A DNA stretch of 64,000 nt, taken from NCBI GenBank assembly GCA_001821395.1, contig MHLM01000012.1, forward strand, positions 84,107 through 148,106, given 5' to 3'. This document shows, one piece after another, positions 35,114 through 55,381 of the stretch (within the stretch, counting starts at the first letter, position 1; every line of letters begins with the position of its first letter). The translations under genes were made by a program, and so were the position numbers. Under the pieces are notes generated by a model, which worked only from the letters and a program-made list of their open reading frames with translations, searched no databases and had not been told where the DNA came from. The stretch comes from Candidatus Lloydbacteria bacterium RIFCSPHIGHO2_02_FULL_50_18 (GTDB taxonomy: Bacteria > Patescibacteriota > Minisyncoccia > Phycocordibacterales > UBA6899).

Positions 35114-35124
35114 CATTGAAAACC

Positions 35125-35853
35125 ATGAACAAAGATATAAAAGATATAATAATCCTTCTTACTGCACTCCTGCTCTCTGCCATCGTCATTGCTGGAATAT
35201 ATTACAGAGCAAAAAGAATACCCGAAGAAACTCCAGGAACCTTGAAAAGATATCAGCTCCAAGGAACACCTGATCATCCGGCGATGTTTTATCCTACCGA
35301 TCTGACTAAAGATATAAACCTATTGGGCTCATCTCATGATGTTTTCATAGGAAAAGTCATTTCTCAAACTGGTGACAAAGAAACTCAGATTGGACCACGC
35401 ACACAATATTCGGTGGAAGTTATTGATAATATTAAGGGTAAGTTAAAAGATATTGTAACCATTGACATGCTGGGTGGTTATGACAAAGATGGCAAGTTGG
35501 TAGTAATCGAAGAAAATGATTCAACTGATTTTCTCCTTAAACCAGGCTCAACTTACCTCTTTGCTACCCGTTATAACGAAGAAGAGGATTGGTATACTCT
35601 AATTTCTCACCCGAATGCTCGAAAAATTATAAGTACAGATAACACAAAAAATGAAGCCGCTCTCATGGCTCTCATCGACCAAGACGAAAAGGTAAAATCC
35701 TTTGAATCCGCATACGCCCATGAAGTTCTCCTCGACGCCGACATCGCCCACGGAAATACTCGTAACTCCTTCCAGTCTCTCGCACCAGCGGAAAAAGCCG
35801 CCGCCCAATCCCGCGCTGATGCGGCAAGAGCCTTGCTTGAGGCAATGCAGTAA
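35125..35853 (+). CDS. hypothetical N-terminally membrane-anchored protein
   Basis: MNKDIKDIIILLTALLLSAIVIAGIYY TM anchor. Its 5' region is duplicated at 36093-36276. Confidence 0.45.
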   Translation: MNKDIKDIIILLTALLLSAIVIAGIYYRAKRIPEETPGTLKRYQLQGTPDHPAMFYPTDLTKDINLLGSSHDVFIGKVISQTGDKETQIGPRTQYSVEVIDNIKGKLKDIVTIDMLGGYDKDGKLVVIEENDSTDFLLKPGSTYLFATRYNEEEDWYTLISHPNARKIISTDNTKNEAALMALIDQDEKVKSFESAYAHEVLLDADIAHGNTRNSFQSLAPAEKAAAQSRADAARALLEAMQ

Positions 35854-36092
35854 GATGCTTCTGCGGGGGTATACTTATTTGTGAACACAACGGCTCATGA
35901 ACAAAAAAATACTAAAATACACACTTGTCATCTTTGGGATATTCCTGCTCGGAGGCGTCGCGTTGTCGATCCATTTGTTCATCCAAAGTAAATTTGGTGT
36001 TTACGCTCCTCTAGATCGCGGATTTCCGGTAAGGACATTCCATCCAACGGGTATTAGTATTGATCAACCCAGCATTTGAATGGATACCTATC

Positions 36093-36276
36093 ATAATTGT
36101 GGGATATAACATTGAAAACTATGAACAAAGACATAAAAGATATAATGATTCTTCTTATTGCACTTCTACTCTCCATCGTCGTCATTGCTGGAATATATTA
36201 CGGAATAAAAAGTACTCAAGGAACTGTAGTTTCAACATATTCTCATCAGGGAACGCCTGAAAATCCGGCAATGTAG
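36093..36276 (+). pseudogene. truncated duplicate of the 35096-35290 junction (gene fragment encoding MNKDIKDIMILLIALLLSIVVIAGIYY...)
   Basis: About 80% nucleotide identity over about 185 bp. It includes the last 20 nt of the upstream gene (HNCGI stop) and the first 51 codons of the downstream gene, then a stop. Confidence 0.4.
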
Positions 36277-36791
36277 AATTTCATAGAAAACAATAATTAT
36301 GGAAGCTCTAAAAAATGAATTAAAGAAAACAATGGTCGTATGGAGAGATGCGTTAATCTGAGAAAAAAGATTTGCTAATCTGAAAAAGCTATTCCTCGTT
36401 ATTTTGGGTGTGGCTGTGTTTATCATTATCTTTCCGATGCCAACGAGGTGCAGGATAGAAAATCATGGAGCATATAGGCCGGCTAACGATTTAGTAATTG
36501 GTGCATACGTGGTTCGTGATTGTTACCCACCAAACCGTGCTGAATTTTGGCAGAACCCACAATTGAGTTTTGAATTTCGCTGGTTATTTGTTCCCACGTT
36601 AGACAGTATAACTGGTCATCGAGGTGTCAGTGTAATAAATATCCATCTATAAGGTAATCCCACATTCGCGTAAGCAATAAAAACTGCTACAAGGCGGGTC
36701 TTTGTTTTTTGTCTGGGCTATTCCTCGCGAGCACTAAGGTGTTCGCATATTGCTGGTCTGCGATAATCTAGTCTTATATAATAGACTCATA

Positions 36792-37214
36792 ATGAAACAA
36801 AATATACTCCTCGCGCTTACTGTTGCGGGCTTACTTTTCTCGGGTTATCTCGGCGGACTGAAGTTGTTTTCCGACACGTGTGCATTTAACGAGACATGCG
36901 CGACATTTTTAGGGTACCCGACGTGTTATTACGGCTTTGCGATGTACCTCTTGATCTTTGTCCTTCTTCTCGCGTCGCGTTTCGGGAAGATGGGCGTTTC
37001 CCGCGCTCGGTACGGAGTAGCCGGTATCTCTTTTGCGGGCATTCTTTTTTCCGGATATTACAGTTTCCGCGAGTTATCAACTCTTCTTCGTGGGGATATT
37101 TCCGATTTTTTGCTCGGATTGCCGACCTGCGCATACGGATTCATCATGTATGTGGCTATTTTGGGCTTTGCGTTGTCATCGATACGAGAAATTCAAAAGA
37201 AGAAGTTGAACTAG
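36792..37214 (+). CDS. hypothetical 4-TM membrane protein with internal duplication (PTC(Y/A)YGF motif twice)
   Basis: The two halves share FSGY...G(Y/L)PTCxYGF(A/I)MY. The ATG at 36792 follows a terminator-free AT-rich leader. Confidence 0.45.
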   Translation: MKQNILLALTVAGLLFSGYLGGLKLFSDTCAFNETCATFLGYPTCYYGFAMYLLIFVLLLASRFGKMGVSRARYGVAGISFAGILFSGYYSFRELSTLLRGDISDFLLGLPTCAYGFIMYVAILGFALSSIREIQKKKLN

Positions 37215-41332: not shown

Positions 41333-41579
41333 AAAACGAGCAATTTGGGCGCACTACAGGTTTGTCATCGGGTATGACCCCACGTCAACGTACGAGAGTA
41401 CGTCTCGTGAGGATCATCCCTCGACGCACCCGTATTGCATCCCAAATTGTTCGTTTTTGTTTTGTCTTAAAATCATGAACATTTGGTTGTCGCGAATATC
41501 GTTGTAGCCGGCAAGTAGATCAAAACACAAAAGACCCGAAAGGGTTTTTTGTTTTATCGTTTTTTGATACACTCTCTTT

Positions 41580-43056: not shown

Positions 43057-43260
43057 ATGTCGATACAGTCAACAGTTCGATATGAATGTGAGCAAGAACA
43101 GGTGAGTGTTCGCTCTGCTTTTGATGTGTTCGTCGCGGAACTGGATGCTATCGATCAGGAGCATGAACTCTTGCTTCAGGATGCGGTGCAGATATTAGAA
43201 GAGCGGGCTGTGAACAAACTCCGTGCACAGATAAGTAATCCCTTTCAACATGGAACCTAA
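43057..43260 (+). CDS. hypothetical small protein (67 aa)
   Basis: ORF immediately after map. It overlaps the start of the next gene by 11 nt. Confidence 0.35.
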   Translation: MSIQSTVRYECEQEQVSVRSAFDVFVAELDAIDQEHELLLQDAVQILEERAVNKLRAQISNPFQHGT

Positions 43261-44644
43261 CGAATTTCCATCGGATGAATTGCAGCCCTCCGCCTACCAT
43301 CCCGAAGAAACAGCGGAGTCGGCAGACCTTTCTCTACTTGAGGATGCTCTCTACCCTGAGGAAAACACTGAAAATGCTGCAGCAGCAGCGGTTGTAGGAG
43401 AGCATGAGGCTATGGCGCTCCGGCAATCGGAGCGAGATCTATCGCAGGAGATAGTCACGCTCCAAGAAAAATTTGAAACGTTGCTCAAGGAGAGCGAGGT
43501 GGAACTATCGCTTGGTGCGAGCAGTCTTGATGCGTCTGCGCATGCGTTTGGTTTGGATGCTGCTGAAAAAAATGAAGCGCTTGAAACGATAGGGTGGAGC
43601 GCTCGCGAGCAAGATCTCCGAGAGCGTCTGCATCAAAGCACCGAGCGATTAGCTAAAGCACTAAGAGAAGGCGCGGGGGTTGTGTCGACTGCTTTTGTGC
43701 TCGGTATTTCAACTCCTGCGTATGCTGAAACGCCCACCGCGCCACTCGAGTCGCTCACCCGAGCGAGTGTTGCTACAGAGACGGGGGAACGGAGCCCGCT
43801 TCCGTCGTACGAGGAGGTGAAAGAACAATTCCGCGCATCAGCACTCATCGCCCTGACAGAAGAGCGAGCGGTCTTTGTGCGGACAAAGGACGGCGAACCA
43901 ATGAAGACGATGATACTCACGAAGGGGAAGTCCGTGTCGGTGGGATTTTCTGATACTGAGCTGAAGGAGCTTTCTGCCGCAATGAAGTCGAGCACGGCGG
44001 AGATCGAAGACGTGCATACTCATCCGATCAATGCCTTAAAGGCCGTCGGCTTGATCAGCGGGGAGGATGCCGACAAGATGGTCCGCGGCGAACTAGCGCC
44101 TGCTTCTGCGGAGCCGTCATCGCAGGACTGGAACATTCTTTTTATGAATGATGAGACCTATAATTTTCCTCCTGGGCAGATGTCTCAACGCGTGATCGAT
44201 GCCACAGGTGAGTGGACGCAGGGAATAAGCGACAGCGGCTCTCCATTCATCGTCGGCATGCGCAAGGGGATGAAGGAGCTGAAACAGATCGGACTAGACG
44301 GCTTTGATCTCACTGCTGACGAGAAAGCGTATCTGGAAGAGAGCATCGCCCAAGATGAGACCTCGTTCCATGCGCTTCAGAAGATCATAAACAGTGATAG
44401 TGTCGACCCTCTTGCGAGTGCGACACGAAAGAAACTGGTAAATGGCATAGGGAAGGTGATGAGTAAATATGTTTCTCTTGAAGATGTGAGAAAATATAGT
44501 GAGCTGACGGAGCCGCGCTCCGCAGCAATGAATAGGGAGGAGCGGAAAGCCCGCGTGCTTCGCATGGAGGAGCTTGCCCCCCTGCTTGGTTTTCGGCTGA
44601 AATACACGCCGCATGAGGTTCCGCCGGATGCTACAGTTAAATAA
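43250..44644 (+). CDS. hypothetical protein (464 aa) with one predicted TM/signal-anchor segment
   Basis: Acidic N-terminus and a hydrophobic GAGVVSTAFVLGISTPAYA segment. The stop is 3 nt before the next start. Confidence 0.5.
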   Translation: MEPNEFPSDELQPSAYHPEETAESADLSLLEDALYPEENTENAAAAAVVGEHEAMALRQSERDLSQEIVTLQEKFETLLKESEVELSLGASSLDASAHAFGLDAAEKNEALETIGWSAREQDLRERLHQSTERLAKALREGAGVVSTAFVLGISTPAYAETPTAPLESLTRASVATETGERSPLPSYEEVKEQFRASALIALTEERAVFVRTKDGEPMKTMILTKGKSVSVGFSDTELKELSAAMKSSTAEIEDVHTHPINALKAVGLISGEDADKMVRGELAPASAEPSSQDWNILFMNDETYNFPPGQMSQRVIDATGEWTQGISDSGSPFIVGMRKGMKELKQIGLDGFDLTADEKAYLEESIAQDETSFHALQKIINSDSVDPLASATRKKLVNGIGKVMSKYVSLEDVRKYSELTEPRSAAMNREERKARVLRMEELAPLLGFRLKYTPHEVPPDATVK

Positions 44645-44646
44645 TA

Positions 44647-45927
44647 TTGAACGCCTTATATCATATGGAACGATCCGAGAGACAATGTGAATCATCAAGA
44701 GCAACAACCACCGAAGGACGACCCTCCGTCCCCGAGGATGCGCCGAAGCTCGCAGACTGGATCGAGGAAGAACTCGGAGATACGGAGCTTGCGGATTTTT
44801 TGCGCGCGCATCCGGAGGGAGTGGAACTTCTCTCGAACGGAGAGGCGATACTGCCACACACGGTATTTGATGTTGTCGAAGATCTTATTGATGCAGACCC
44901 TGCGTTTGCTCAAGAACTTGCCTGCACACTGGATCGGGAGCGACTTTTTCCCGAACTTTCATATCAGAAGGGGGTGGGGAATGTGACTGAGGAGGAGGTC
45001 GCTGATGCATTCAGAGAAAGAAAATTCATTGTCGCACGAGATCGCACTGCACTACATGAGGGTCAGGTGGAAATGAGTGAAGTTGATCGGCACATTACCC
45101 ATGCTGCGAATATTGCGCTTTCTCAGCTGAGAGAAATATACGGACTCCCTGAATTTACTGTTCCTGACGAAGCCGTACGCATCATTTTCGGAACCGACGA
45201 CGTATTTGTCCATGAATCGGGGAAACCACTGACGGCTTCTTTTTCACAAGGACTGCAAAACGTGTATTTCCCGGAGGATGCAAATGTTAAACAGCGTCTG
45301 AACAGTATATTTCACGAATTCACCCATTTTCATTCCTACGGTTCATTTCAGGTGGACCGTATGCAAGATGGAGGTTCTGCGACAAGCGACTATCGCGTTG
45401 GGCTAAAGGTCCGAGCGCGACAAGTGAAGGGCTCGCCAACCACCGCCTATCTTGAGTCGCTCAATGAGGCGGTCACCGAAGAAACCGCAAATCGTCTTTG
45501 TCGCGATATCTCTGAGGATGACCCCGATCTTGGTATGTTTGCGAAAGATGGACATGACTTTTCAAAATACATCACTGAGGAATATCCGGAGATGCTCACG
45601 GAGGGCAACTTGCGTCCATATTGGATCAGCTACGGGAAAACAAAAGAAAATGGTGATGTTCCGGTCTTTTCCTCATATGCAGAAGAAAGAAATGTGATGT
45701 TTGATATGTTCAAAAAGATCTACGAGAGAAATCCGAACCTATTCGACGGGAAGTCTCCCGATGAAGCAGAGAATGAGCTTTTTGAGATGCTGCAAAAAGC
45801 CATGTTCACCGGCAACATCCTTCCTTTTGGCCGGTTATTCAATGACACATTCGGTCGGGGGAAATTTCGTGAGTTTGGACACTTACAAACGATCGGGGAG
45901 CAGCAGTCTTTTGTCGAAGGGCTGTAG
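44647..45927 (+). CDS. hypothetical protein with HExxH motif (candidate zincin-like metallopeptidase)
   Basis: IFHEFTHFH in an otherwise unrecognised 426-aa soluble protein. Confidence 0.5.
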   Translation: MNALYHMERSERQCESSRATTTEGRPSVPEDAPKLADWIEEELGDTELADFLRAHPEGVELLSNGEAILPHTVFDVVEDLIDADPAFAQELACTLDRERLFPELSYQKGVGNVTEEEVADAFRERKFIVARDRTALHEGQVEMSEVDRHITHAANIALSQLREIYGLPEFTVPDEAVRIIFGTDDVFVHESGKPLTASFSQGLQNVYFPEDANVKQRLNSIFHEFTHFHSYGSFQVDRMQDGGSATSDYRVGLKVRARQVKGSPTTAYLESLNEAVTEETANRLCRDISEDDPDLGMFAKDGHDFSKYITEEYPEMLTEGNLRPYWISYGKTKENGDVPVFSSYAEERNVMFDMFKKIYERNPNLFDGKSPDEAENELFEMLQKAMFTGNILPFGRLFNDTFGRGKFREFGHLQTIGEQQSFVEGL

Positions 45928-46048
45928 GGCATTTCCTGCTTCGTCCGCCGCGCTGTAGGACCATCGCGTGCTATTGATGCTGAACACGCGGTTTTCTGCT
46001 GAAATACACGCCACATCCATCTTTCTCAAGCGCTGCTGTGCGGATAAT

Positions 46049-46079
46049 CTTACTCACGTGACAGAATGTGTTATATAAT
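46049..46079 (+). promoter_or_regulatory. sigma70-type promoter (TTACTC ... tgtTATATAAT) for the ATPase gene, near-leaderless
   Basis: TATAAT at 46074-46079 lies 9 nt upstream of the ATG at 46089. Confidence 0.4.
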
Positions 46080-46088
46080 GAACATTCC

Positions 46089-49000
46089 ATGGAGCATCAT
46101 GAAGGACAATTTGAGTCACCCAAGTTTTCTTCGCCGGAAGAAGAGCTGAAGTATCTGCGTGAGCGCGTCGCGCAAAAGGAGCAACAGTTGTGGCAGGAGC
46201 AGGAGCCCGTACAAAAAGAATCAGTGATCTCAGGTCAGGTCCTTGAATATGCAGAGTCGTCACCCGCAGCAAGACTGGAAGAGCACATGATCATCGAAAA
46301 TCCGCAGTTCGAGACGGTAGTTGAGCACTTGAGCTCCCTTCCTCATCGTGAGAAAGTGCGCGAACTATATCGTATCCTTGCCGAAAAAGGCGTCTTGAAT
46401 GCGATCAACGTCGCGCGGGCGCAGAATAATCCGCATATTGAAGAAGACTTCCATCGTGTGCTTGTTGAATATGTAAAGACGGGCGTTCTGGTTCCCGGTC
46501 TTGATAAGGAGAGGGAGCTTGCCAAGGAATTACGTATGACCGTGTTTGAGGTGACTCTTCCCTACGCCGGAGCACAGGAAGGTGTTACACTTGCATCATT
46601 TCATGACGTCGTGACCGCAATGGAGCGCTTTTATATCGGCATGATCCCTCCACCCGGTTCCTCCGCAGCACCGTATGGTCCGATTGCACTCGAGCTCGTG
46701 TTGTCTAATTTTTCAAGTGATATTGTTTTCTTTATCACCGTAGAAGAGCACATGAAGGATCTTTTTGTGAAGCAGATCCTCGGCTCATTCCCCACGGCGA
46801 AGATCGAAGAGTGTCCCGGTGACTTTAATATCTTCAATGAATTCGGTATTTCGGTGGCATCCTATGCTGAACCATTGGGAAATTTTATCTATCCGATACA
46901 ATTAATGGAGGAGGCAGAGAAGGATCCGCTCACGACCATCCTTAATTCTTTCACGAAGATCGAGAGGAACGGTGAGGGTGCCGCAATCCAGATCATACTT
47001 TATCCTGATACCGGAAATATCGACGGAAAGATCAAGTACGGCATCCATCAGTTGGGACAACACGTTCCCGCGTCTCGCGCCACGAATATCCCTCTTTCTA
47101 CGGGGGGTGTCATCACTAAATCGCTGACGGAATTTTTTCATACTCAGCTGAAGACCGAGAAAAAGGATGAGGCCACGCAGGCAAAGGAAGCAGAAACGAA
47201 TGCGAAAGCAAAAGAACTCATGGAAGAGAAGATCAAGGCACCGCTCATCCGGGCAAATATCCGCATCGTTGCTTCTTCGACGACGCGTGAGCGTGCCGAA
47301 ATGATTCGCATGTCGATAGAGGCGGCGTTCAGTCAATTCAATCGACCGCAAGCGGGAGGGGTCAAGTTCACGAAGACGGTGAATAAAAAACTTGAAGAGT
47401 TGCTCCATCATTTTACCTATCGCGAGGTGAACGACAGTGAGGCGCTTATCTTCAATTCAAGAGAACTTGCATATCTTTACCATCTTCCGCTTACGGTATC
47501 TCAAAAGGATGCACCACAACTGAAGACCGTACAGGCATCATCCGCTCCCGCGCCGGCTGACTTGCCGCATGAGGGGACATTGATCGGCGTCAACAAGTAT
47601 CGCGGTGAGTCGCGCGAGATACGGCTAACGAAGGCGGACCGCCTGCGGCATCTCTATACGATCGGACAAACAGGAACAGGGAAGTCCGTCTTCCTCAAAA
47701 ATCTTGCGGTCCAGGACATTTTGGCCGGGAATGGCGTCTGTTTCATTGATCCGCACGGTTCCGACGTACAGGATGTGCTTGCGGCTATACCAAAGGAGCG
47801 CATCGATGACGTGATCTATTTTGATCCTTCCTACACGAAGCGGCCATTTGCACTGAATATGCTGGAATACGATGTTGACCATCCCGAGCAAAAGATCTTT
47901 GTCGTGAATGAAATGCTTGCGATATTCAAGAAACTCTACTCCTCGAGTCCTGAATCAATGGGTCCCGCTTTTGAGCAGTATTTCAGAAATGCGACAATGC
48001 TCGTGATGGAGGATCCTGAAAGCGGGAACACGCTGCTTGAGATACCGCGCGTGCTTGCGGATCCCGCATTTCGCAATCTCAAACTATCGCGTTGCAAGAA
48101 CCCCATTGTGGTGCAGTTCTGGAGAGATATAGCAACGAAGACATCGGGCGAATCCGGTTTGCAGAACATGATTCCCTATATCACCAATAAGTTCGACGTA
48201 TTCATCTCGAATGACGTGATGCGTCCGATCATCGCACAGGAGAAATCCTCGTTCAATTTCCGCGATATTATGGACAACAAGAAGATCCTTCTGGTGAATC
48301 TCGCAAAAGGCAGCCTTGGGGAGATGAATGCAAATCTCCTTGGGCTCATCATTATCGGAAAATTCCTTATGGCGGCAATGTCGCGCGTTGATTCATTCGG
48401 AAAATCGCTTCCTGATTTTTATCTGTACGTCGATGAATTCCAGAACATCGCTACTCCATCGATCTCGGCCATCCTCTCTGAGGCGCGCAAATACGGACTC
48501 TCACTCAATCTTGCTCATCAATTCATCGGTCAACTTCCCGAAGACATCAAGGCGGCAGTTTTTGGTAATGTCGGCAATATGGTGGTGTTCCGCGTCGGCA
48601 CCGAAGACGCGCAGTTTCTGGAGTCTCAGTTTGCGCCGATATTCAAGGCGTCTGACATCATGAAGATCGAGAATCGCAATGCCTATGCGAAGATCCTGAT
48701 TAACGGAAAGCCGGTATCTCCGTTCAATGTCGAAATGCTTCCACCGCCCGAGGGGCACCCCGAAGTTGTTGAGCAGCTGAAGAATCTGTCTTATCTGAAG
48801 TACGGACGGGACCGAAAGATCGTCGATGATGCAATATTGAAACGTTATATGTCCGCGCAACAAAATCCTCAGCCCGCAGGCGTGGCGGCAGTGAGATCAG
48901 TCACACCGATAGCTTCGGTACCCGTCCAATCCGGAGCCGTCGCCCCGGTTCAGTCACAAATTCTTCGTCCGGTCGTTATGTCGGCACCTCTTTCGGTTCC

Positions 49001-49265
49001 CACAGTTCCGGTAAGTGTCCCTCCAGCAACGGCAGTCGTTCCGTTTCCAGCAGTCCCGTTGCCGTCCAGTCCCGTATCTCCTCTCAATACTGCGCCACAA
49101 GCCACAACGCAGTTTGCGCAAGCATTCGTGCGTGCGGATCAAGTGGCACCCTCGAACGTTTCACTCTCTCTACCCGAGATGCCCGCATTCAAGATGGCTG
49201 AGGAGCCGGACAACAAGGTCCCCCCAGTCCCTGGAGCTTTTGGCAGTGTATTTTCCCAAAAATAG
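46089..49265 (+). CDS. HerA/FtsK/TraD-VirD4-superfamily P-loop ATPase with large N-terminal domain and Pro/Val-rich C-terminal tail (1059 aa)
   Basis: Walker A IGQTGTGKS and Walker B LYVDEFQNI precede the LNLAHQ sensor. About 470 aa of unassigned N-terminal sequence. The ORF track began at a GTG at 46068. Confidence 0.65.
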   Translation: MEHHEGQFESPKFSSPEEELKYLRERVAQKEQQLWQEQEPVQKESVISGQVLEYAESSPAARLEEHMIIENPQFETVVEHLSSLPHREKVRELYRILAEKGVLNAINVARAQNNPHIEEDFHRVLVEYVKTGVLVPGLDKERELAKELRMTVFEVTLPYAGAQEGVTLASFHDVVTAMERFYIGMIPPPGSSAAPYGPIALELVLSNFSSDIVFFITVEEHMKDLFVKQILGSFPTAKIEECPGDFNIFNEFGISVASYAEPLGNFIYPIQLMEEAEKDPLTTILNSFTKIERNGEGAAIQIILYPDTGNIDGKIKYGIHQLGQHVPASRATNIPLSTGGVITKSLTEFFHTQLKTEKKDEATQAKEAETNAKAKELMEEKIKAPLIRANIRIVASSTTRERAEMIRMSIEAAFSQFNRPQAGGVKFTKTVNKKLEELLHHFTYREVNDSEALIFNSRELAYLYHLPLTVSQKDAPQLKTVQASSAPAPADLPHEGTLIGVNKYRGESREIRLTKADRLRHLYTIGQTGTGKSVFLKNLAVQDILAGNGVCFIDPHGSDVQDVLAAIPKERIDDVIYFDPSYTKRPFALNMLEYDVDHPEQKIFVVNEMLAIFKKLYSSSPESMGPAFEQYFRNATMLVMEDPESGNTLLEIPRVLADPAFRNLKLSRCKNPIVVQFWRDIATKTSGESGLQNMIPYITNKFDVFISNDVMRPIIAQEKSSFNFRDIMDNKKILLVNLAKGSLGEMNANLLGLIIIGKFLMAAMSRVDSFGKSLPDFYLYVDEFQNIATPSISAILSEARKYGLSLNLAHQFIGQLPEDIKAAVFGNVGNMVVFRVGTEDAQFLESQFAPIFKASDIMKIENRNAYAKILINGKPVSPFNVEMLPPPEGHPEVVEQLKNLSYLKYGRDRKIVDDAILKRYMSAQQNPQPAGVAAVRSVTPIASVPVQSGAVAPVQSQILRPVVMSAPLSVPTVPVSVPPATAVVPFPAVPLPSSPVSPLNTAPQATTQFAQAFVRADQVAPSNVSLSLPEMPAFKMAEEPDNKVPPVPGAFGSVFSQK

Positions 49266-49354
49266 TCTTTAAGTGTCGAAGAATTTCGCTGAAACGTACT
49301 GTTTTTTCGGCATCTTTGCTACAATAAGTTGGCTAACGGGCGCGGAAAATATCT

Positions 49355-49384
49355 TTTGACAAAGTACAAAATTATTGATATAAT
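49355..49384 (+). promoter_or_regulatory. perfect consensus sigma70 promoter TTGACA-N18-TGaTATAAT driving a leaderless mRNA of the giant gene
   Basis: TTGACA at 49355-49360, TG at 49376-49377, TATAAT at 49379-49384. The ATG at 49391 is 6 nt after the -10 hexamer. Confidence 0.6.
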
Positions 49385-49390
49385 GATAAT

Positions 49391-52300
49391 ATGAACGAAT
49401 TTCCTGAAGACATTAAGGTGCAAGGGGAGACGGTTGAAGCGCGCGGTCTGCGCTGGAAAACGGAAGAAGACGATCTGCAGCGCTTGCTTCTGGAAAATAA
49501 TGTTTCGACTGAGGCGTCGGATATGTTGATTGACCAGCTTGCCCGGAAACATCGGACGGAGGAAGAGAACAACGACGTCTTTCCGACCATGGATGATTTC
49601 GACCGCTATGAAAGGGCGATGTCTTTTGGCACATCTGAACGGGGAGAGGATGTATCACCCGCACAAAATGAACCACCTGCCGCGATCGAAGCCGTTGCGA
49701 CGATCGTTGAACGTGAAGAAGAGGATAAGCCCGGGCAACTGTCACAAGAGATGAAGGAGGCGCTCGTGAGAGAATTGAATACGACCAAAGACGAGATCGA
49801 TCAGGCGTGGAGTGTCATTCGCGTCTATGGCGGTGAGAAAAAGGACGGCATCATTCCCGAAAAAAGAACGTACACTGAAGAAGAATTCTTGAATGCAAGG
49901 AGAACATACGATCAATTGCGTACGAAGGCGAAAGAGTTGGCGCTTGAAGTAGCCGGAGGAGAGCAGCTCTTTGGTGCGGTCAAGATTCCCGATCTTGTGG
50001 TGATGGATAGTTATAACGAGAAGGTTTCAGCGAGGACGAGGGATGAGCGTAAAGTAAGGGAGCGTGCACTCCCAAAAGAGGAACGAGATGCATATTACGA
50101 TGCGCTTGCTCGTAAGCGAGCGTTTGTGCAGGCGCTTACCGATAACGGCGTGCGAAAGGATATGGCACTTGGTCTCTATGGCGAGTTCGCCGACAAAGCG
50201 ATCGCTCTTGATAAGTTTTCGCAAGTGCTTGAACATGAATTGAAAGAGGGAGATGCGCCGAAGCTCTCGGGGGGACGAGAATACCATCTGCTGAAGTGGC
50301 ATGGCATCAAAGAAGGTTCGTCGTGGGATGAGATCGCGGCACAGGTCCATGCGCTGCTTGATGCATATCATACCGTTCCTCCTCATGTGGAACGCGTGCG
50401 CGAAGAAGTGCCATCATTAGTACCTCTTATGGATGCAAAGGAGGCAGGGGTCGTTCCCACTACTCAGTCACATGCCGATACTGCAGGAATACCGAGCGCA
50501 CCTTTTTCCGAAATGGATGAGCAGTTTCCGTCCGATGCCGGTGCGGTGGACGAGGCCGTTCCACAGGAGGTGATCGATGGGTGGAAAGAACAGGGCATCA
50601 TGATCAAGCCGGGCACGACGGGAGCGGAGTTAGGAACGATATTGCGAAATGTTGGTGGCGCACGCGGGATGGAATCGATTGCAGCGACCCAAGCGCAGGT
50701 TGAGCTTACGGAGATTGCTCCGGTGGAAGAGACCGACTCGGTCGTACTAGCTCCATTGGTGACTACCGATACAGAGACACCGGCAGAAACACCTATTGAA
50801 GAGGAGGCATTACCTCCCCCGATCGAGGCTGTCGTGTCGGCTCCTTCAGGTGTGGAGGATGTTTTGCCACAAGTGGAGATAAGTCCCGAGCAGCAATCAC
50901 TCACACCGCTATCGTGGGAAGAGGTTGATGCGCAGATGGCAGGTTCTGATCTTGAAGTAGTACAACATGCACGAGCTGAATGGGAGCGGCGGACAAATGC
51001 GGCATTAGCATACAGTAAAGAAAAAGGCACGTTTGGTGCTCTGCGGGAAACTCTGCGTACGATCAGGGATGGTTTTGGTAATACGATCCCCGAAAAATGG
51101 TTGAAAGAATTTCATGAAGTCCCCGATGTGGCACGATATTTGCGCGAACATCCGATTGCCGAGGGAGTCAGTGCCGCGCCGGAAGTTGTTACGACGGTAT
51201 TGTCGAATAAGCAGCTCGAGGATATGGCTGAGGCCGGTCAGTGGGATAACAAAAAAGATACGACTGCAGAGACGGAGTTTGAGATGCGTGAAGGCGGGAA
51301 GAAGAATAAAGAGAATATCTTTCTTGAGAAAGCGATCAGTGCGTTCCGTGCTACCCCGAGTATGGATTTTGCGATGGTCAAGGCCGCGATCGATGCCGGC
51401 AATAAGCCGACAAGTGAAGTGATCGGGGATCTTCTTGCGCGAGGACTCGTCACGCTGACTCCCCCGGGGACATATACATGGGTTGAGACTGCCGATGCGC
51501 CTGAAATTTCCGTCATTCCTGAAACGGAAGCTCTGGATATTCCTTTCATTCCAACTATTCCTACGATCCCGCAGCCGGTGGTTCCTGCCGCATCGCTACC
51601 TGTTGTACCAGAATCTATTCCTCAACTGACACCGCTCCATGAAGCTCCCGCTACGCTCTCTTCCTACGATGCAGCTCTTGAAGAGCAGTGGAACGCACGG
51701 GATAAAAAATTTCAAGCGCCTGACTGGGAGCTTGTTCCGATGGAAAAAGCGGAGTCTGAAGCATCTCCTCAATTAACCGCGGAAGAAGAAAAAGAACTGA
51801 ATGAGGTTGGTACATTATGGGCTTCATTTCTTGATCGTGAATACGGGCTTGATATCGAGGGAAAAGAAATTGCGCCGATTACCGAGGAGGCGGTCATTGC
51901 AAACGGGGAAGCGTTGGAGACACTTGCACTTACTTCAGGTTTACCGGAAGAGGCACTTGGACGTGTCCAAGCCGCGGAAGCGGTCGGCGACACCGTTCCC
52001 GGCGATGTCACATATCAGTTCGAAAGAAAATTCGGAGTGAGCGGAGCAATGCTCGAAAGGATAGCGTCATTCAGCGGCCTCTCGGCCGGGCAGCAATTAC
52101 TTGTCCTCAAAAATCTCGAGCAGCTTACACTTACTGATATCACCAAAGAGGCAAAAGCAAAACAGCAGGCGGAATGGGGAAATACGAAGTGGTGGAAAAG
52201 AGGACTGCAGATGATCGCATCTCTCGGCATGAAGCCGGAGTATCGCACCGCAGAGCTCGAAAAAGAACTGCTCGCAAAAACACAAGAGTCAAAAGCACAG

Positions 52301-54622
52301 CCCGAAACCCCTGAAGCGGTCCACCGAAAGGCGAAGACGCTTTCATACATTGAATCGCTCGCGAAGGTCGCACAAGAAGGACCGGAAGTGATCGTCGAGA
52401 ATGGGGAGCCCCGTACCAATTATCTTTCTTCTAAGGACCTCATTCCACAGAAGGAGGGGGGTACAGTGAGCGAAGAACAGAAAATTACGATCGAGAATTT
52501 CAATCGTTCTGCCAGCGCTTATGCAACAATCCCACATGGATGGACATACGGAACGACCGAACTTTCGAAGGAAGATCGTGCGCAATTTGAGCAAACCAAA
52601 CTTGCTTATGATGTTGCACGTGCGTCCCTGCTTTATTCGTACAAAGACCGCTTCAAAGAAGAGGGAGAAGCTCCCGCTCGTGCGGAGATGCATGCGCTTC
52701 GCGAGATGAACAAGCTTGATGAGCGGGTCACGCTCGATCAGTTGTTCAATAGTAATCCTGATGCTGAAGCGGCTTTGCAGAATATTGCGGACACCTCCGC
52801 GATGACCCGTGCGGCGAAAGAGTTCTGGAAATCGAAGGGCATGTTCATTCTCTATGGTGGTCTTACGCGTGCGGCAGCGGTCTCCGCAGCGGGAGTACTT
52901 GCGGTGCCGACCATGGGCGCATCGATCTATGCCGCTCTCGCCGTGGGCGGGGTGGGCTACGGGGCAGCACTCGGAGCGGGCTATGGCGTAGGACACGGCA
53001 TCGGTCAAAAAGAGGGAAAGAAACTGATGAAAGAAAAGCGTGAAGACGGACGCATGGGTGAGGACGATAAACGAGAGGAGTTTGAATACTCGAGCCCTAT
53101 GCATGATGAAAAGGGGGCGGTCGTGAAGGATCAATTTGGTGAAGCGGTGGTGGAAACAAAGAAGCGCAAGATCAAAGCATTCACCGATGCGACCTTTTTC
53201 ACTGACCGTATCGATACGCTTACCGCAAAGCTTGAGCAATCCCCGACGCCTGAATCTCGCATGTTGATCGAAAAAAAGATCGCGGAGACGGTCGCGCTCA
53301 TGTCTGCAAAACTTTCACGTGGCATGATCAACTTTGCCGGATCCTCGCTTCCCGGAAATGACGTGCGTAAGGGGGAGACGATAGGGAATCGATTGTCATT
53401 TATGCAAGCCATGACGAAGGGTGCGATCGAGACGAGTGTTGATGGTGCAAAACTGGAACAAGAGGCGGAGCGACTGGTCGGTCTTCGCGAGGCTATCATC
53501 ACGGAGGCACAGAAGAATGAGATCAAGCATATCGCCGCAAAAGCAGCAAAAACACGAGCTGCGTTTGCTCTTGCCGGTGCGGGGCTGTCACGTGTTATGA
53601 GTTTTGGTGTTGGGGTCTACCGAGACGGAATGCCAGATATTGCAAAGAATATCGCACGACTTGATCATACTATTGCACAACGTATCTCAAGTGGAGCACC
53701 GGAAAGCATCGAGGAGATCACCGAGATTCCTGCGCCGGAGGAAATAGCTTCAGTACCCAAGTTGGAAATGAGCGCTCATGGCGCGCCGGAACTTGATTTT
53801 CGTGATCCGGCAAGCTACGCCGTTTATATGAAAGAAATGAACAGCGTTTTCGAGCGACAGGTCTCAGCATCTGAGGTGCGGGCATTATGGCAAACAGACG
53901 TACCATCTTCCTCTATGTCGTCTGAATACTATGAGAGTATCCAAGGGAAGACACACAACGCCATTGTCGGGGCAATGTTGGACAAAAATACTCCGCTCAC
54001 CGAGGAAGAGCTCGCTGATATTTATCGGCATTTCGGATACAACGAAACAATGGGGAGACAATTTCCGAATGAAATGGGGCTGGACAAGAATGAAACGATC
54101 ATTGGAGCAGTGAAGCCGTCGCTTCCACTACCGCCACTCCCGTCGGAAATGCCACCGTCACTTCCTCTTCCACCAAATACCTCAACACCCGGAACCGAAA
54201 CATGGGCGAAATTACGGAGGCCGATGCCGGAGGATGCCGTGCTTTCGGACCAGCGAACATTCGGCAGTCAGCCGGAGAATATCTCTCCGCGCATGCCCTT
54301 GAATGAAGTGGCACCACACGTTCCGACCGATGCAGAGATGGCGCTGTCAGTTGCACGAATTGAGACAAGCATTCACCGTTACCTTACGAGTAACGAGGTT
54401 GTTACTTTTAAAAGTCTGAAAACGCTCGAGTTGAGCACGTCAGACCACGAGACGCGCGATATGGTGATCGATGCAGAAAACTTTCTCGTTGAAGAGATGA
54501 CAAAAGGGCCGCTTTCACCTTCGCAAATGTATCATCTCCTCGAACAATATTCGCTCCAAGAAACGATAACCGTCGTTCGGGATGCGGACCTTGAACGAGA
54601 GTTGTTCCAACGAAGACCATAG
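49391..54622 (+). CDS. giant hypothetical protein (1743 aa) with Pro-rich linkers and Gly-zipper TM segments
   Basis: Single uninterrupted ORF. Predicted TM or amphipathic segments lie near residues 1150-1200 (AAVSAAGVLAVPTMGASIYAALAVGGVGYGAALGAGYGVG) and near 1390. All internal opposite-strand ORFs are shadows. Confidence 0.6.
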   Translation: MNEFPEDIKVQGETVEARGLRWKTEEDDLQRLLLENNVSTEASDMLIDQLARKHRTEEENNDVFPTMDDFDRYERAMSFGTSERGEDVSPAQNEPPAAIEAVATIVEREEEDKPGQLSQEMKEALVRELNTTKDEIDQAWSVIRVYGGEKKDGIIPEKRTYTEEEFLNARRTYDQLRTKAKELALEVAGGEQLFGAVKIPDLVVMDSYNEKVSARTRDERKVRERALPKEERDAYYDALARKRAFVQALTDNGVRKDMALGLYGEFADKAIALDKFSQVLEHELKEGDAPKLSGGREYHLLKWHGIKEGSSWDEIAAQVHALLDAYHTVPPHVERVREEVPSLVPLMDAKEAGVVPTTQSHADTAGIPSAPFSEMDEQFPSDAGAVDEAVPQEVIDGWKEQGIMIKPGTTGAELGTILRNVGGARGMESIAATQAQVELTEIAPVEETDSVVLAPLVTTDTETPAETPIEEEALPPPIEAVVSAPSGVEDVLPQVEISPEQQSLTPLSWEEVDAQMAGSDLEVVQHARAEWERRTNAALAYSKEKGTFGALRETLRTIRDGFGNTIPEKWLKEFHEVPDVARYLREHPIAEGVSAAPEVVTTVLSNKQLEDMAEAGQWDNKKDTTAETEFEMREGGKKNKENIFLEKAISAFRATPSMDFAMVKAAIDAGNKPTSEVIGDLLARGLVTLTPPGTYTWVETADAPEISVIPETEALDIPFIPTIPTIPQPVVPAASLPVVPESIPQLTPLHEAPATLSSYDAALEEQWNARDKKFQAPDWELVPMEKAESEASPQLTAEEEKELNEVGTLWASFLDREYGLDIEGKEIAPITEEAVIANGEALETLALTSGLPEEALGRVQAAEAVGDTVPGDVTYQFERKFGVSGAMLERIASFSGLSAGQQLLVLKNLEQLTLTDITKEAKAKQQAEWGNTKWWKRGLQMIASLGMKPEYRTAELEKELLAKTQESKAQPETPEAVHRKAKTLSYIESLAKVAQEGPEVIVENGEPRTNYLSSKDLIPQKEGGTVSEEQKITIENFNRSASAYATIPHGWTYGTTELSKEDRAQFEQTKLAYDVARASLLYSYKDRFKEEGEAPARAEMHALREMNKLDERVTLDQLFNSNPDAEAALQNIADTSAMTRAAKEFWKSKGMFILYGGLTRAAAVSAAGVLAVPTMGASIYAALAVGGVGYGAALGAGYGVGHGIGQKEGKKLMKEKREDGRMGEDDKREEFEYSSPMHDEKGAVVKDQFGEAVVETKKRKIKAFTDATFFTDRIDTLTAKLEQSPTPESRMLIEKKIAETVALMSAKLSRGMINFAGSSLPGNDVRKGETIGNRLSFMQAMTKGAIETSVDGAKLEQEAERLVGLREAIITEAQKNEIKHIAAKAAKTRAAFALAGAGLSRVMSFGVGVYRDGMPDIAKNIARLDHTIAQRISSGAPESIEEITEIPAPEEIASVPKLEMSAHGAPELDFRDPASYAVYMKEMNSVFERQVSASEVRALWQTDVPSSSMSSEYYESIQGKTHNAIVGAMLDKNTPLTEEELADIYRHFGYNETMGRQFPNEMGLDKNETIIGAVKPSLPLPPLPSEMPPSLPLPPNTSTPGTETWAKLRRPMPEDAVLSDQRTFGSQPENISPRMPLNEVAPHVPTDAEMALSVARIETSIHRYLTSNEVVTFKSLKTLELSTSDHETRDMVIDAENFLVEEMTKGPLSPSQMYHLLEQYSLQETITVVRDADLERELFQRRP

Positions 54623-54772
54623 GAACAGAGCGTGAGACTGATTCCTCCGCGCTTTTACAAGACCAACACCCCCCCCCTAATGTGTGGGGGTGTTGTGCTA
54701 TTCATCCATGAAGTTGCGTGCTTTCTCGTATCTGCTACGATGGAGCACAATTAGGAATAATCTAAACTTCGT

Positions 54773-55381
54773 ATGGAGAAAAAGCATCCCAAATTCGAGC
54801 GCACATTCGTCATCCTTAAGCCGGATGCAATACAGCGCACGCTTATCGGAGAAGTCATTAAGCGTTTTGAGCGTACGGGGTTGAAGACGGTCGGTATGAA
54901 AATGATCGTCGCAACACGTGAACAGACCGCAGCGCATTATGGAAAGGATGATGCGTGGTGCGAAAAAGTAGGTGGACGCATCATCGGGGATATAGAGCGA
55001 GAGGGAGGTAAGGCTGAGAAGTCGGCTTTGGAGTATGGCCGTGACATATTGAACGGTCTGTTGGATTTCCTGACTTCTTCACCGATCGTGATCATGGCTC
55101 TTGAAGGCAATCAGGCGGTCGGCGTCGTCAAAAAGATCGTTGGTGGGACGGAACCCCTTTCCTCGGATGTCGGTACTATCCGCGGTGATTTCACGAGTGA
55201 TTCATACGAGATCGCTGGTGTGGACGGACGAGCGGTGCGAAACATCGTGCATTGTTCCGATCAGGTGTCCGAAGCGGAACGTGAGCTCAAGGTCTGGTTC
55301 AAAGAAGGCGAATTGATCAAGTACACACATGTCGGGGAGCGAATGCTGTACGATGTGAACATGGACGGCATCCTCGAGTAA
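54773..55381 (+). CDS. ndk: nucleoside diphosphate kinase (with internal insertion)
   Basis: FVILKPDAIQRTLIGEVIKRFERTGLK and the active-site NIVHCSD (NxxHxSD). Confidence 0.9.
   Translation: MEKKHPKFERTFVILKPDAIQRTLIGEVIKRFERTGLKTVGMKMIVATREQTAAHYGKDDAWCEKVGGRIIGDIEREGGKAEKSALEYGRDILNGLLDFLTSSPIVIMALEGNQAVGVVKKIVGGTEPLSSDVGTIRGDFTSDSYEIAGVDGRAVRNIVHCSDQVSEAERELKVWFKEGELIKYTHVGERMLYDVNMDGILE

What the first reader, a model, noticed from the sequence alone, without database searches (positions are those of the whole stretch)
43057..54622. 11.5 kb cluster of unknown genes replaces infA-rpmJ-rpsM-rpsK-rpsD-rpoA-rplQ after map
In nearly all bacteria map is followed by infA-rpmJ-rpsM-rpsK-rpsD-rpoA-rplQ. 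Here it is followed by five co-directional genes with no recognisable housekeeping function, then ndk.
- A 67-aa protein.
- A 464-aa protein with a signal anchor.
- A 426-aa HExxH protein.
- A 1059-aa HerA/FtsK/TraD-VirD4-superfamily P-loop ATPase with Walker A GQTGTGKS, Walker B YVDEFQ and about 470 aa of novel N-terminus.
- A 1743-aa protein with Gly-zipper TM segments and Pro-rich linkers.

There are at least three transcription units; the ATPase and the giant gene each have their own -10 elements. ATPases of this superfamily energise conjugative, type IV and DNA-translocation machines. Giant surface proteins are typical of episymbiotic CPR bacteria. Together this looks like an uncharacterised secretion or host-interaction module embedded in the ribosomal superoperon.
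Basis: partly seen in the sequence, partly recalled or inferred. Interest (0 to 1): 0.75.

Follow-up and report, generated by a model that had tools for sequence, protein, structure and literature searches.

The report
Conserved coupling-type ATPase after map
In this groundwater Lloydbacteria genome, and in hundreds of related ultra-small Paceibacteria, the ribosomal gene string ends not with the usual rpoA block but with a highly conserved motor protein descended from plasmid-transfer coupling ATPases; the four other unknown genes around it are fast-evolving, clade-specific additions, not parts of one fixed machine.

Summary
Five co-directional ORFs fill 43057-54622 between map and ndk, and no infA, rpmJ, rpsM, rpsK, rpsD, rpoA or rplQ lies anywhere in the window.

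The region is not one accessory module.
- **ATPase (46089-49265).** It has a DUF8128 N-domain, a VirD4/TrwB-like P-loop domain and no TM segment. It is a lineage-wide core gene, with 466 confirmed matches in one-genome-per-species GTDB. It sits at secY-adk-map-ATPase-ndk in most loci, often with nothing else between. It evolves as slowly as ribosomal proteins and tracks SecY divergence.
- **Closest annotated relatives.** These are TM-less ATPases beside the relaxase in Bacillaceae conjugation modules, plus a Herelleviridae phage family.
- **The other four genes.** All are clade-specific and fast-evolving: a gluzincin-fold HExxH/NEAxTE protein, a protein with a RadC/JAB-like motif, a 67-aa ORF and a giant membrane protein with its own perfect promoter.

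The secretion idea survives only as homology-based inference: a domesticated coupling-type translocase, perhaps serving the Patescibacteria T4SS. The ATPase's function is still unknown.

The parts
43057..43260 (+). c67: 67-aa ORF. It starts 8 nt after the map stop and overlaps c464 by 11 nt, so it is probably co-transcribed with map.
   Evidence: It is called as a gene in the same organism's ENA contig. The only detectable homologue is in L008 (phmmer 1.2e-10).
43250..44644 (+). c464: an acidic N-region, one conserved weakly hydrophobic segment (aa 141-159, nt 43670-43726), then a domain with a RadC/JAB-like motif. The motif is EERAVF (43859-43882), HTHP (44015-44026) and PSSQD (44114-44128).
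   Evidence: There are only 4 database homologues plus L008, and the motif residues are invariant in all 5. One member gives a weak Pfam RadC hit (E 0.028). A co-linear but weak alignment to E. coli YicR was found, using a sequence recalled from memory (E about 0.015). The PDB profile search was negative. The JAB assignment is inference.
44665..45927 (+). c426: a cytoplasmic gluzincin-fold metalloprotease-like protein. It carries HEFTH (45313-45327), LNEAVTEE (45460-45483) and an ultra-conserved C-terminal block FTGNILPFGRLFNDTFGRGKFREFGHLQT (45805-45891).
45960..46016 (+). A decayed duplicate of the 3' end of c464. It encodes GFLLKYTPH against GFRLKYTPH in c464, and lies downstream of c426. 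It is a scar of a local rearrangement that placed c426 between c464 and the ATPase.
   Evidence: A 27-nt direct repeat is 93% identical, at 44588-44614 and 45990-46016. L008 has the order c426-c67-c464 instead.
46074..46079 (+). A TATAAT -10 element 9 nt before the ATPase ATG. The -35 is weak.
   Evidence: Read directly from the sequence. The consensus scan did not list it.
46089..49265 (+). Core ATPase of 1058 aa. The N-terminal DUF8128 region spans about aa 1-470. The P-loop domain carries Walker A (47664-47687), a helical insert (aa about 600-730), Walker B (48417-48443) and a T4CP-like RKxG...HQxxxQL motif (48483-48536). The C-terminal tail is rich in Pro, Val and Ala (aa 927-1058). No TM segment is present.
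   Evidence: Lineage-wide synteny is shown.
49356..49384 (+). Perfect sigma-70-type promoter of the giant gene: TTGACA, 17 nt, TG-extended TATAAT. It ends 6 nt before the ATG, which predicts a leaderless mRNA.
   Evidence: It is the only 12/12 match in 15 kb.
49391..54622 (+). Giant 1743-aa acidic protein. The conserved core is aa 870-1410 (51998-53620). Gly-rich hydrophobic segments lie at aa 1152-1205 (52844-53005) and aa 1391-1409 (53561-53617). Pro-rich linkers lie at 51539-51634 and 54122-54175.
   Evidence: The core family has 383 cluster representatives, and no Pfam domain was found in the window's protein or in 8 members. It lies downstream of the ATPase, directly or within two genes, in L005-L010, L085, L086, L094, L097 and L098. 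Distant members are encoded elsewhere.
54664..54697 (+). A GC-rich hairpin (CCAACACCCCC...GGGGGTGTTG) after the giant's stop codon. It is terminator-like but has no T run.
   Evidence: Read directly from the sequence. The terminator scan did not list it.

Best explanation
**Shown**
- The 11.5 kb is a composite, not one system.
- Its centre is a vertically inherited, slowly evolving core gene of class Paceibacteria. The protein is soluble and has a DUF8128 N-domain fused to a VirD4/TrwB-type P-loop translocase domain.
- This gene is fixed at the end of the spc operon as secY-adk-map-ATPase-ndk.
- In this lineage the infA-to-rplQ block is not attached there.
- The junctions on either side of the ATPase are slots that hold different, fast-evolving, clade-specific genes.
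  - In this genome the slots hold c67, c464 (RadC/JAB-like motif), c426 (gluzincin fold) and a giant membrane-associated protein with its own strong, leaderless-type promoter.

**Inferred**
- The ATPase descends from the TM-less coupling-position ATPases of monoderm conjugation modules, which sit between a primase gene and the relaxase gene.
- It probably still works as they are thought to: a ring ATPase that uses ATP to bind a macromolecular substrate (DNA or unfolded protein) and push it towards a membrane channel.
- The most likely partner is the chromosomal Patescibacteria T4SS, which is encoded elsewhere.
- The neighbouring zincin, JAB-like protein and giant protein are at best clade-specific clients or accessories. 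They are not required parts.
For: **Distribution**
- 311 homologues reach E <= 1e-5. The 120 listed are 48-94% identical over 68-100% of the length (over 85% for all but one).

**Synteny**
- 57 of 80 loci have map and/or ndk in the stretch fetched around the ATPase.
- In about half of the loci that hold map or ndk, the gaps are under 400 bp, down to 13 bp and -3 bp.
- Independent metagenome contigs give the same order.

**Constraint**
- Median identity to the window is 48% for the ATPase, against rplR 50, rplO 51, map 56, secY 63, adk 39 and ndk 42.
- ATPase and SecY pairwise identities correlate (r = 0.76, Mantel p = 0.001).
- In the closest relative the ATPase is 94% identical, while c426 is 81% and the giant 82%.

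**Ancestry**
- Pfam TraG-D_C passes its cut-off, and TrwB is the only PDB sequence hit.
- It is 26% identical over 563 aa (E 1e-35) to a Shouchella plasmid ATPase. That ATPase lies between a primase gene and a 'replication-relaxation' gene, with conjugal-transfer genes further downstream. A Peribacillus plasmid has the same layout, with a TcpE family gene among them.
- These relatives also lack TM segments.
- phrog_5156 matches aa 210-926 at 8.6e-76.

**Literature**
- 5,713 VirD4-type T4CP homologues were reported in 2,918 Patescibacteria genomes.
- Only 148 of them lie near virB4.
- The authors state that exaptation 'cannot be ruled out' (PMC12102498).

**No island signature**
- There are no tRNA genes and no flanking repeats.
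- GC is 0.48-0.525, like the flanks.
Against: - No T4SS gene, relaxase or other partner is seen within 10 kb in any locus, so context gives no functional link.
- The T4CP homologue of Southlakia is reported as non-essential although its T4SS is essential (PMC12102498). Orthology to this family was not tested.
- All NCBIfam conjugation models score far below their cut-offs, and Pfam TrwB_AAD_bind is below its cut-off.
- In 23 loci neither map nor ndk lies in the fetched stretch. A recurrent context there is the dcw cluster upstream and RmuC downstream, which would fit a DNA or division role.
- The giant is consistently downstream of the ATPase across a deep clade, even where map is gone (L094). 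Some functional link between the two therefore cannot be excluded.
Confidence: 0.6

Rival explanations
1. All five genes form one uncharacterised secretion or host-interaction machine: an ATPase motor, a membrane or surface giant, and protease accessories or effectors, inserted as an accessory module into the ribosomal superoperon.
For: - The ATPase is T4CP-like.
- Zincin and RadC/JAB-like proteins are typical cargo of conjugative elements. This is general knowledge; the domain calls here come.
- The giant follows the ATPase in every member of the Lloydbacteria-like clade whose downstream sequence was obtained, except L087.
- c426 is always between map and the ATPase when present.
- A Herelleviridae phage homologue also has a metallopeptidase gene just upstream.
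Against: - The ATPase stands directly between map and ndk in about half of the loci that hold them.
- c67 and c464 occur in 1 of 80 genomes and c426 in 5 of 80.
- An unrelated 535-aa multipass membrane protein takes c464's place in sister genomes.
- Distant members of the giant family are encoded away from any such ATPase.
- Gene order is shuffled between relatives and has left a duplication scar.
- The ATPase evolves about three times more slowly than its neighbours.
Confidence: 0.15
2. The ATPase is a housekeeping DNA translocase. It would act as an FtsK-like chromosome-segregation motor or a HerA-like repair motor, has nothing to do with secretion, and its neighbours are unrelated fillers.
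For: - Its constraint is like that of ribosomal proteins.
- The alternative recurrent context is mraZ-mraW-PBP-Mur ligase upstream and RmuC downstream.
- It is operonic with map and ndk in many genomes.
Against: - Sequence-level matches are to T4CP families (TraG-D_C, TrwB, SXT TraD, CD1115) and to plasmid coupling-position ATPases.
- No NurA-like partner was seen, and there is no N-terminal membrane anchor.
- No FtsK family reached significance in Pfam or NCBIfam. The FtsK gamma domain was not specifically tested.
- Whether these genomes lack canonical FtsK was not tested.
Confidence: 0.2
3. The region is a recently integrated mobile element, an ICE or plasmid remnant specific to this strain.
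For: - The ATPase has homologues on 337 plasmids and 27 phages.
- Own promoters are present.
- There is a local duplication scar.
Against: - No integrase, relaxase or tRNA genes and no flanking repeats were found.
- GC matches the flanks.
- The ATPase sits at the same site in a large share of 80 sampled species, and its divergence tracks SecY.
- No match was found in IMG/VR viral contigs.
Confidence: 0.03

Closest known systems
Type IV coupling proteins (VirD4/TraG/TrwB; Pfam TraG-D_C, TrwB_AAD_bind)
   Same: - It has a P-loop domain with Walker A and B, a helical insert between them, and the RKxG...Q...QL motif that aligns with TrwB.
- TraG-D_C scores above its cut-off.
   Different: - There is no N-terminal transmembrane domain.
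- A 470-aa soluble DUF8128 N-domain is present instead.
- There is no linked relaxase or T4SS.
- It is chromosomal, lineage-wide and operonic with map and ndk.
- It scores far below all NCBIfam TraD/TraG/VirD4 cut-offs.
TM-less 'DUF87 domain-containing' ATPases of Bacillaceae conjugative-type plasmids (Shouchella clausii NZ_CP012476, Peribacillus NZ_CP068052), and phrog_5156 of Herelleviridae phages
   Same: - They are co-linear with the ATPase over about 560 aa, including the end of the N-domain (26% identity, E 1e-35).
- phrog_5156 covers aa 210-926.
- They also lack TM segments.
   Different: - They lie between a primase gene and a relaxase gene, with conjugal-transfer genes (including a TcpE family protein in Peribacillus) further downstream, or in phage genomes.
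- They are on mobile elements, not in a housekeeping operon.
- None is experimentally characterised, as far as the records show.
Patescibacteria T4CP homologues surveyed by Quinonero-Coronel et al. 2025 (PMC12102498)
   Same: That survey reports VirD4-type homologues as abundant in Patescibacteria, mostly far from virB4, with possible exaptation. This ATPase very probably belongs to that set.
   Different: - In the passages read, that paper does not describe the DUF8128 architecture, the map-ATPase-ndk position or the degree of conservation.
- Membership of its dataset was not checked.
HerA/FtsK/EccC ring translocases
   Different: - There is no sequence-level family match above threshold. PADLOC HerA hits are local and weak.
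- There is no NurA partner.
- There are no FtsK membrane or gamma domains.
Gluzincin metallopeptidases (M1 aminopeptidases, thermolysin, DPP III), compared with c426
   Same: - HExxH lies on a helix, followed by a second helix carrying NEAxTE. This resembles NEGFA of M1 and NEAxSD of thermolysin (motifs from general knowledge).
   Different: - There is no sequence-family hit.
- A 46-residue spacer holding a beta-hairpin separates the two motifs.
- The N-terminal helical domain and the invariant C-terminal block are unique to this family.
- Foldseek against the PDB found nothing significant.

Membership tests
Type IV coupling protein (VirD4/TraG/TrwB) | P-loop NTPase domain of the FtsK/HerA/VirB4/VirD4 clade with Walker A and B | tested here: met
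   [not shown]
Type IV coupling protein (VirD4/TraG/TrwB) | Score above curated family thresholds | tested here: inconclusive
   Pfam TraG-D_C scores 25.6 against a cut-off of 22, which is met. TrwB_AAD_bind scores 18.4 against 20.5, which is not met. NCBIfam TraD, TraG and CD1115 models score 17-40 bits against cut-offs of 250-650.
Type IV coupling protein (VirD4/TraG/TrwB) | All-alpha domain inserted in the nucleotide-binding domain | tested here: inconclusive
   The AF2 model shows ten helices at aa 600-730, between Walker A and B. pLDDT there is only 50-70.
Type IV coupling protein (VirD4/TraG/TrwB) | N-terminal transmembrane anchor | tested here: not met
   No hydrophobic segment is found in the N-terminal 470 aa. 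The segments that pass the threshold are internal strands or helices of the folded domains.
Type IV coupling protein (VirD4/TraG/TrwB) | Genetic linkage to a relaxase and/or mating-pair-formation genes | tested here: not met
   Where neighbours were identified, they are ribosomal, spc-operon, ndk, dcw or RmuC genes plus unknown ORFs. No T4SS or relaxase family was recognised among the annotated neighbours or in the Pfam-labelled loci.
Pfam DUF8128 (PF26449) | Match to the family model | tested here: met
   Precomputed Pfam hits are recorded on this exact protein and on most homologues. The local Pfam copy did not report it, presumably because the model is newer than that copy.
HerA helicase | HerA family match plus a NurA nuclease partner | tested here: not met
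   [not shown]
FtsK/SpoIIIE | N-terminal membrane domain and C-terminal gamma (KOPS-binding) domain | tested here: not met
   There is no TM segment. The C-terminus is a low-complexity tail rich in Pro, Val and Ala. No FtsK family match reached significance in Pfam or NCBIfam. The only FtsK-named hit is a weak PHROG match to phrog_1358, 'FtsK/SpoIIIE-like protein' (E 0.0066, 15 bits).
Gluzincin metallopeptidase (c426) | HExxH plus a downstream Glu ligand on a second helix, in a zincin fold | tested here: met
   [not shown]
RadC-like JAB/MPN+ domain (c464) | E ... HxH ... S-x-x-D metal-binding and catalytic motif in a JAB fold | tested here: inconclusive
   E204, H256-T-H258-P and P289-S-x-x-D293 are invariant in 5 sequences, but a 30-aa insert separates the last two. 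Pfam RadC gives E 0.028 in one member. The YicR alignment has E about 0.015 and HH probability 3.6%. No structure was predicted.
Mobile genomic island / ICE | Integrase or relaxase, flanking repeats or a tRNA target, atypical composition, patchy distribution | tested here: not met

The most novel reading that the evidence does not exclude
A conjugative coupling ATPase was domesticated at the base of Paceibacteria into an indispensable, ribosomal-operon-embedded motor. That motor would drive macromolecule exchange between these ultra-small cells and their hosts through the Patescibacteria T4SS. The clade-specific neighbours would be its clients or docking factors: a zincin with an invariant basic C-terminal block, a JAB-like protein, a giant membrane protein and, in sister genomes, a 535-aa multipass membrane protein. 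If so, the region would give the first handle on T4SS substrates in this class.
Probability: 0.15. Interest if true: 0.75.

Novelty: new variant of a known kind. Interest (0 to 1): 0.5.

Why it matters
- Patescibacteria make up a large share of bacterial diversity, and their core genes of unknown function are the main obstacle to understanding how they live.
- This ATPase is about 900 aa long and as conserved as ribosomal proteins. It is operonic with map and ndk in many species, yet uncharacterised apart from a DUF label and an aggregate count of 'T4CP homologues'.
- Showing that it is a domesticated coupling-type translocase at a fixed housekeeping locus makes it a concrete target.
  - Genetics could be done in the few cultivable Paceibacteria.
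  - Co-occurrence tests could be run against T4SS, FtsK and HerA.
- The result also corrects the tempting reading that any unknown cluster inside the ribosomal superoperon is an accessory island.
  - In this genome the superoperon is broken at several junctions.
  - Those junctions act as slots for fast-evolving genes.

Tried and rejected
- **Pfam, NCBIfam, PADLOC and PHROGs on all five proteins.** Only the ATPase gave hits.
- **PDB profile searches for c464 and c426.** These returned only spurious low-complexity matches.
- **IMG/VR viral contigs for the ATPase.** No relatives were found.
- **The ~540-aa ORF upstream of the ATPase in sister genomes as a diverged c464.** This was rejected.
  - hhalign probability is 0.1%.
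  - It is a multipass membrane protein.
  - It is absent from the window.
- **Obligate ATPase-giant linkage.** This was rejected because distant giant-family members lie in unrelated contexts.
- **DUF8128 in the literature.** No paper mentions it.
- **Patescibacteria or Parcubacteria with FtsK in the literature.** Nothing useful was found.
- **Location of the infA-to-rplQ block in this genome.** I could not find it.
  - The contig look-up is limited to window proteins.


Full report
**1. What is in the sequence**

The window is a stretch of the str-S10-spc ribosomal superoperon of a CPR bacterium. Source names on two of the cluster proteins identify it as Candidatus Lloydbacteria bacterium RIFCSPHIGHO2_01_FULL. 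The same organism's DNA occurs in an ENA assembly and in several Logan assemblies.

Pfam scans give this gene order on the + strand:
- fusA, tuf, rpsJ-rplC-rplD-rplW-rplB
- rpsS-rplV-rpsC ... rpsQ-rplN ... rplE
- rpsN-rpsH-rplF-rplR-rpsE-rplO-secY-adk-map
- the five ORFs of the finding
- ndk, DUF2238, a beta-CASP RNase and UDG
- rplT (Pfam label PF00453) follows on the - strand.

Three small corrections apply.
- The ATPase starts at ATG 46089 and is 1058 aa. Its first residues, M-E, are conserved in homologues.
- The HExxH protein probably starts at ATG 44665 and is 420 aa.
- The ATPase N-terminus is a registered Pfam family, DUF8128.

**2. The missing alpha-operon block**

I used E. coli IF1, L36, S13, S11, S4, RpoA and L17 as probes.
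- tblastn finds none of them in the 64 kb window.
- tblastn finds none of them in the 84 loci held at that point: 80 relatives' loci plus four from the same organism.
- Precomputed Pfam labels on nine metagenome or MAG loci show none within the up to 10 kb fetched on each side of the looked-up gene.

The block must lie elsewhere in the genome, but I could not locate it.

**3. The ATPase is a lineage-wide core gene**

- The word-indexed search found 311 homologues. The 120 listed are 48-94% identical over 68-100% of the protein (over 85% for all but one).
The record titles name Lloyd-, Nomura-, Taylor-, Zambryski- and Yonath-bacteria, Paceibacterota and Minisyncoccia.
- Mapping all window genes onto the 80 best loci shows secY-adk-map-ATPase-ndk-(DUF2238)-beta-CASP again and again.
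- In 23 of 49 loci that hold map, the ATPase starts within 400 bp of map. In 25 of 51 loci that hold ndk, ndk starts within 400 bp of the ATPase. Extremes are 13 bp and a 3-bp overlap.
- Median identity to the window protein is 48%. That is like rplR (50) and rplO (51), and higher than adk (39) and ndk (42).
- Pairwise identities correlate with those of SecY (r = 0.76, Mantel p = 0.001; mean 56% against 63%).
- In 23 loci neither map nor ndk lies in the fetched stretch. Several of these are too short to judge. A recurrent alternative context is the dcw cluster upstream (PBP, greA, lysS, mraZ, mraW, PBP, Mur ligase, DAGK) with RmuC and rplU downstream, which is again housekeeping.
- There is no tRNA gene, integrase, relaxase, flanking repeat or GC anomaly.

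It is therefore met for the ATPase. 'Universal' should be read as 'the majority arrangement in the sampled species'.

**4. What the ATPase is**

By sequence:
- Pfam TraG-D_C passes its threshold and TrwB_AAD_bind just misses.
- NCBIfam gives only weak local hits to TraD, TrbC, CD1115-VirD4 and VirB4 models.
- PADLOC gives weak mad8 and HerA hits.
- TrwB is the only PDB sequence match.

By predicted structure:
- An AF2 model built from 41 homologues has pLDDT 73. The N-domain is at 80-90 and the helical insert is lower.
- This is secure at superfamily level and ambiguous at subfamily level.

Relatives on mobile elements are more informative.
- tblastn finds relatives on 337 plasmids: Bacillus, Streptomyces, Staphylococcus, haloarchaea and Sulfolobus.
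- tblastn finds relatives in 27 phages, mostly Herelleviridae.
- phrog_5156 (function unknown) matches residues 210-926 at 8.6e-76.
- On a Shouchella clausii plasmid and a Peribacillus plasmid, the homologue lies between a primase gene and a 'replication-relaxation' gene. Conjugal-transfer genes follow further downstream, including a TcpE family gene in Peribacillus. This is the position of a coupling protein.
- The Shouchella protein is co-linear with the window ATPase over 563 aa (26% identity, E 1e-35), from the end of the N-domain through the whole NTPase.
- These plasmid proteins also lack TM segments.

The published survey of Patescibacteria T4SS reports 5,713 VirD4-type homologues in 2,918 genomes. 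Only 148 lie near virB4. It notes that exaptation cannot be ruled out, and that the Southlakia homologue is not essential (PMC12102498). Wang et al. saw no recognisable coupling protein in the Southlakia T4SS locus (PMC10633639).

My reading is that the window ATPase is a domesticated member of a TM-less, coupling-position ATPase family of monoderm mobile elements. It is now a core gene of Paceibacteria.

**5. The four neighbours are clade-specific**

*c426*
- It has 42 homologues, all Lloydbacteria-like.
- It was detected in 5 of 80 genomes, always between map and the ATPase.
- HExxH and NEAxTE are invariant, and the C-terminal 30 residues are almost invariant.
- The AF2 model is confident (pLDDT 86.9, pTM 0.81).
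- I call it a divergent gluzincin-fold protein, cytoplasmic by the lack of any signal sequence.

*c464*
- It has four database homologues plus one in L008.
- Its invariant residues spell E...HTHP...PSxxD, the RadC/JAB pattern with a 30-residue insert.
- Statistical support is weak: RadC E 0.028 in one member, and a co-linear alignment to YicR at E about 0.015.

*Replacement of c464 in sister genomes*
- The slot before the ATPase holds an unrelated 517-552-aa protein in sister genomes. The four copies tested are multipass membrane proteins of one family.

*The giant*
- Its core (aa 870-1410, including the Gly-rich hydrophobic segments) defines a family of 383 cluster representatives.
- No Pfam domain was found in the window's protein or in 8 members.
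- The family lies downstream of the ATPase, directly or within two genes, in all Lloydbacteria-like loci with downstream sequence except L087. This holds even where map is no longer upstream (L094).
- More distant members sit in unrelated contexts.

*Rates and rearrangement*
- In the closest relative the ATPase is 94% identical, ndk 98%, c426 81% and the giant 82%.
- A decayed copy of the c464 3' end lies downstream of c426.
- L008 has the order c426-c67-c464.
- The slot has therefore been reshuffled recently.

**6. Transcription**

- c67 starts 8 nt after map, overlaps c464, and c426 follows after 20 nt. These three are probably read through from map.
- The ATPase has TATAAT 9 nt before its ATG.
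- The giant has the only perfect sigma-70 consensus in 15 kb, with a TG extension, ending 6 nt before its ATG. This predicts a leaderless transcript.
- A GC-rich hairpin follows the giant's stop codon.
- Overall promoter-like and terminator-like counts do not exceed shuffled expectation. Only the 12/12 site is individually notable.

**7. Mechanism**

Shown:
- A TM-less P-loop ATPase of the ring-translocase superfamily.
- Intact Walker motifs and the T4CP-type post-Walker-B motif.
- Strong purifying selection.
- A fixed position in a housekeeping operon.

Inferred: by homology, the ATPase works like a coupling ATPase, a ring that binds a macromolecular substrate and feeds it to a membrane channel. 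My estimates, which are judgements and not computed values, are:
- about 0.4 that it serves the Patescibacteria T4SS encoded elsewhere;
- about 0.25 that it is a DNA-handling housekeeping motor (segregation or repair);
- the remainder for something else.

Context gives no partner. The non-essentiality of a T4CP homologue in Southlakia argues for caution. The neighbours could be clade-specific clients or anchors, but nothing requires this.

**8. Novelty and score**

- The family is registered (DUF8128) and has been counted in aggregate as 'T4CP homologues'. It is therefore not categorically new.
- I did not find the following described in the literature searched here:
  - the TM-less DUF8128-T4CP architecture as a class-wide core gene;
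  - its fixed position at the map-ndk junction in place of the alpha-operon block;
  - its conservation at the level of ribosomal proteins;
  - the variable slots around it.
- The rating is 'new variant of a known kind', with interest 0.5.

Noticed in passing
window 7089-12446, 17714-24864, 29834-37214: The ribosomal superoperon of this genome is interrupted at three further junctions.
- fusA|tuf holds unknown 183-, 421- and 247-aa ORFs, two NT5C/HAD-like genes and a YdjM-like gene.
- rplB|rpsS holds Fic, Bax1-I, four unknown ORFs and queA on the - strand.
- rplE|rpsN holds two unknown ORFs, an M50 peptidase, a 936-aa beta-helix protein, a 250-aa unknown ORF and a VKOR-like gene.

The rplE|rpsN junction is also expanded in many relatives, and an M50 homologue lies upstream of rpsN/rpsH in L006 and L086 (rplE is off those loci).
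   Followed up: partly
window 34000-37000: GC falls to 0.41-0.43 against about 0.49 elsewhere. The dip covers the 3' end of the 936-aa gene, the 250-aa ORF and the region up to the VKOR-like gene. It may be a more recent acquisition.
   Followed up: no
window 32303-35113: A 936-aa protein has a right-handed beta-helix domain (PF13229, 9.5e-21). Its C-terminal HExxH-type region gives weak hits to Peptidase_M43, Peptidase_M10 and the Legionella T4SS effector LegP model. It may be a secreted protease or adhesin.
   Followed up: no
window 41527-41552: A strong intrinsic-terminator-like hairpin (11-bp stem followed by a T run) lies between secY and adk. adk-map and the genes after them may therefore form a transcription unit separate from the spc genes.
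   Followed up: no
window 45960-46016 and 44540-44614: A decayed duplicate of the last ~60 nt of c464 lies downstream of c426. It still encodes GFLLKYTPH, against GFRLKYTPH in c464. It is a rearrangement scar.
   Followed up: yes
L005:1577-3190, L006:8190-9848, L014:8334-9935, L060:8254-9891; also L086:8391-9944, L087:8337-9941, L097:3119-4726: A 517-552-aa ORF with no Pfam hit lies immediately upstream of the ATPase in seven Lloydbacteria-like genomes. The four copies tested (L005, L006, L014, L060) form one conserved family, 42-55% identical to one another, with a ~320-aa soluble N-part and C-terminal TM helices. The L086, L087 and L097 ORFs were not compared with that family. The family is absent from the window. 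It is a candidate membrane partner of the TM-less ATPase.
   Followed up: partly
L092:3845-7283 (Bacillus phage YungSlug): The phage homologue of the ATPase overlaps the end of a 'peptidoglycan metallopeptidase' gene, and two small membrane-protein genes precede it. This is a possible minimal envelope-crossing module in Herelleviridae.
   Followed up: no
window 54773-55381: ndk encodes 202 aa. The NDK Pfam domain matches in two stretches, and the best one covers only residues 89-180. This suggests an N-terminal extension or an insertion compared with the usual ~140-aa enzyme.
   Followed up: no
L095:1-1903: An FtsH homologue in an unrelated metagenome contig carries intein and LAGLIDADG Pfam hits.
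   Followed up: no
window 46074-46089 and 49379-49393: Both the ATPase and the giant gene have a TATAAT box only 6-9 nt before the start codon and no Shine-Dalgarno sequence. Leaderless transcripts may be common in this organism.
   Followed up: no
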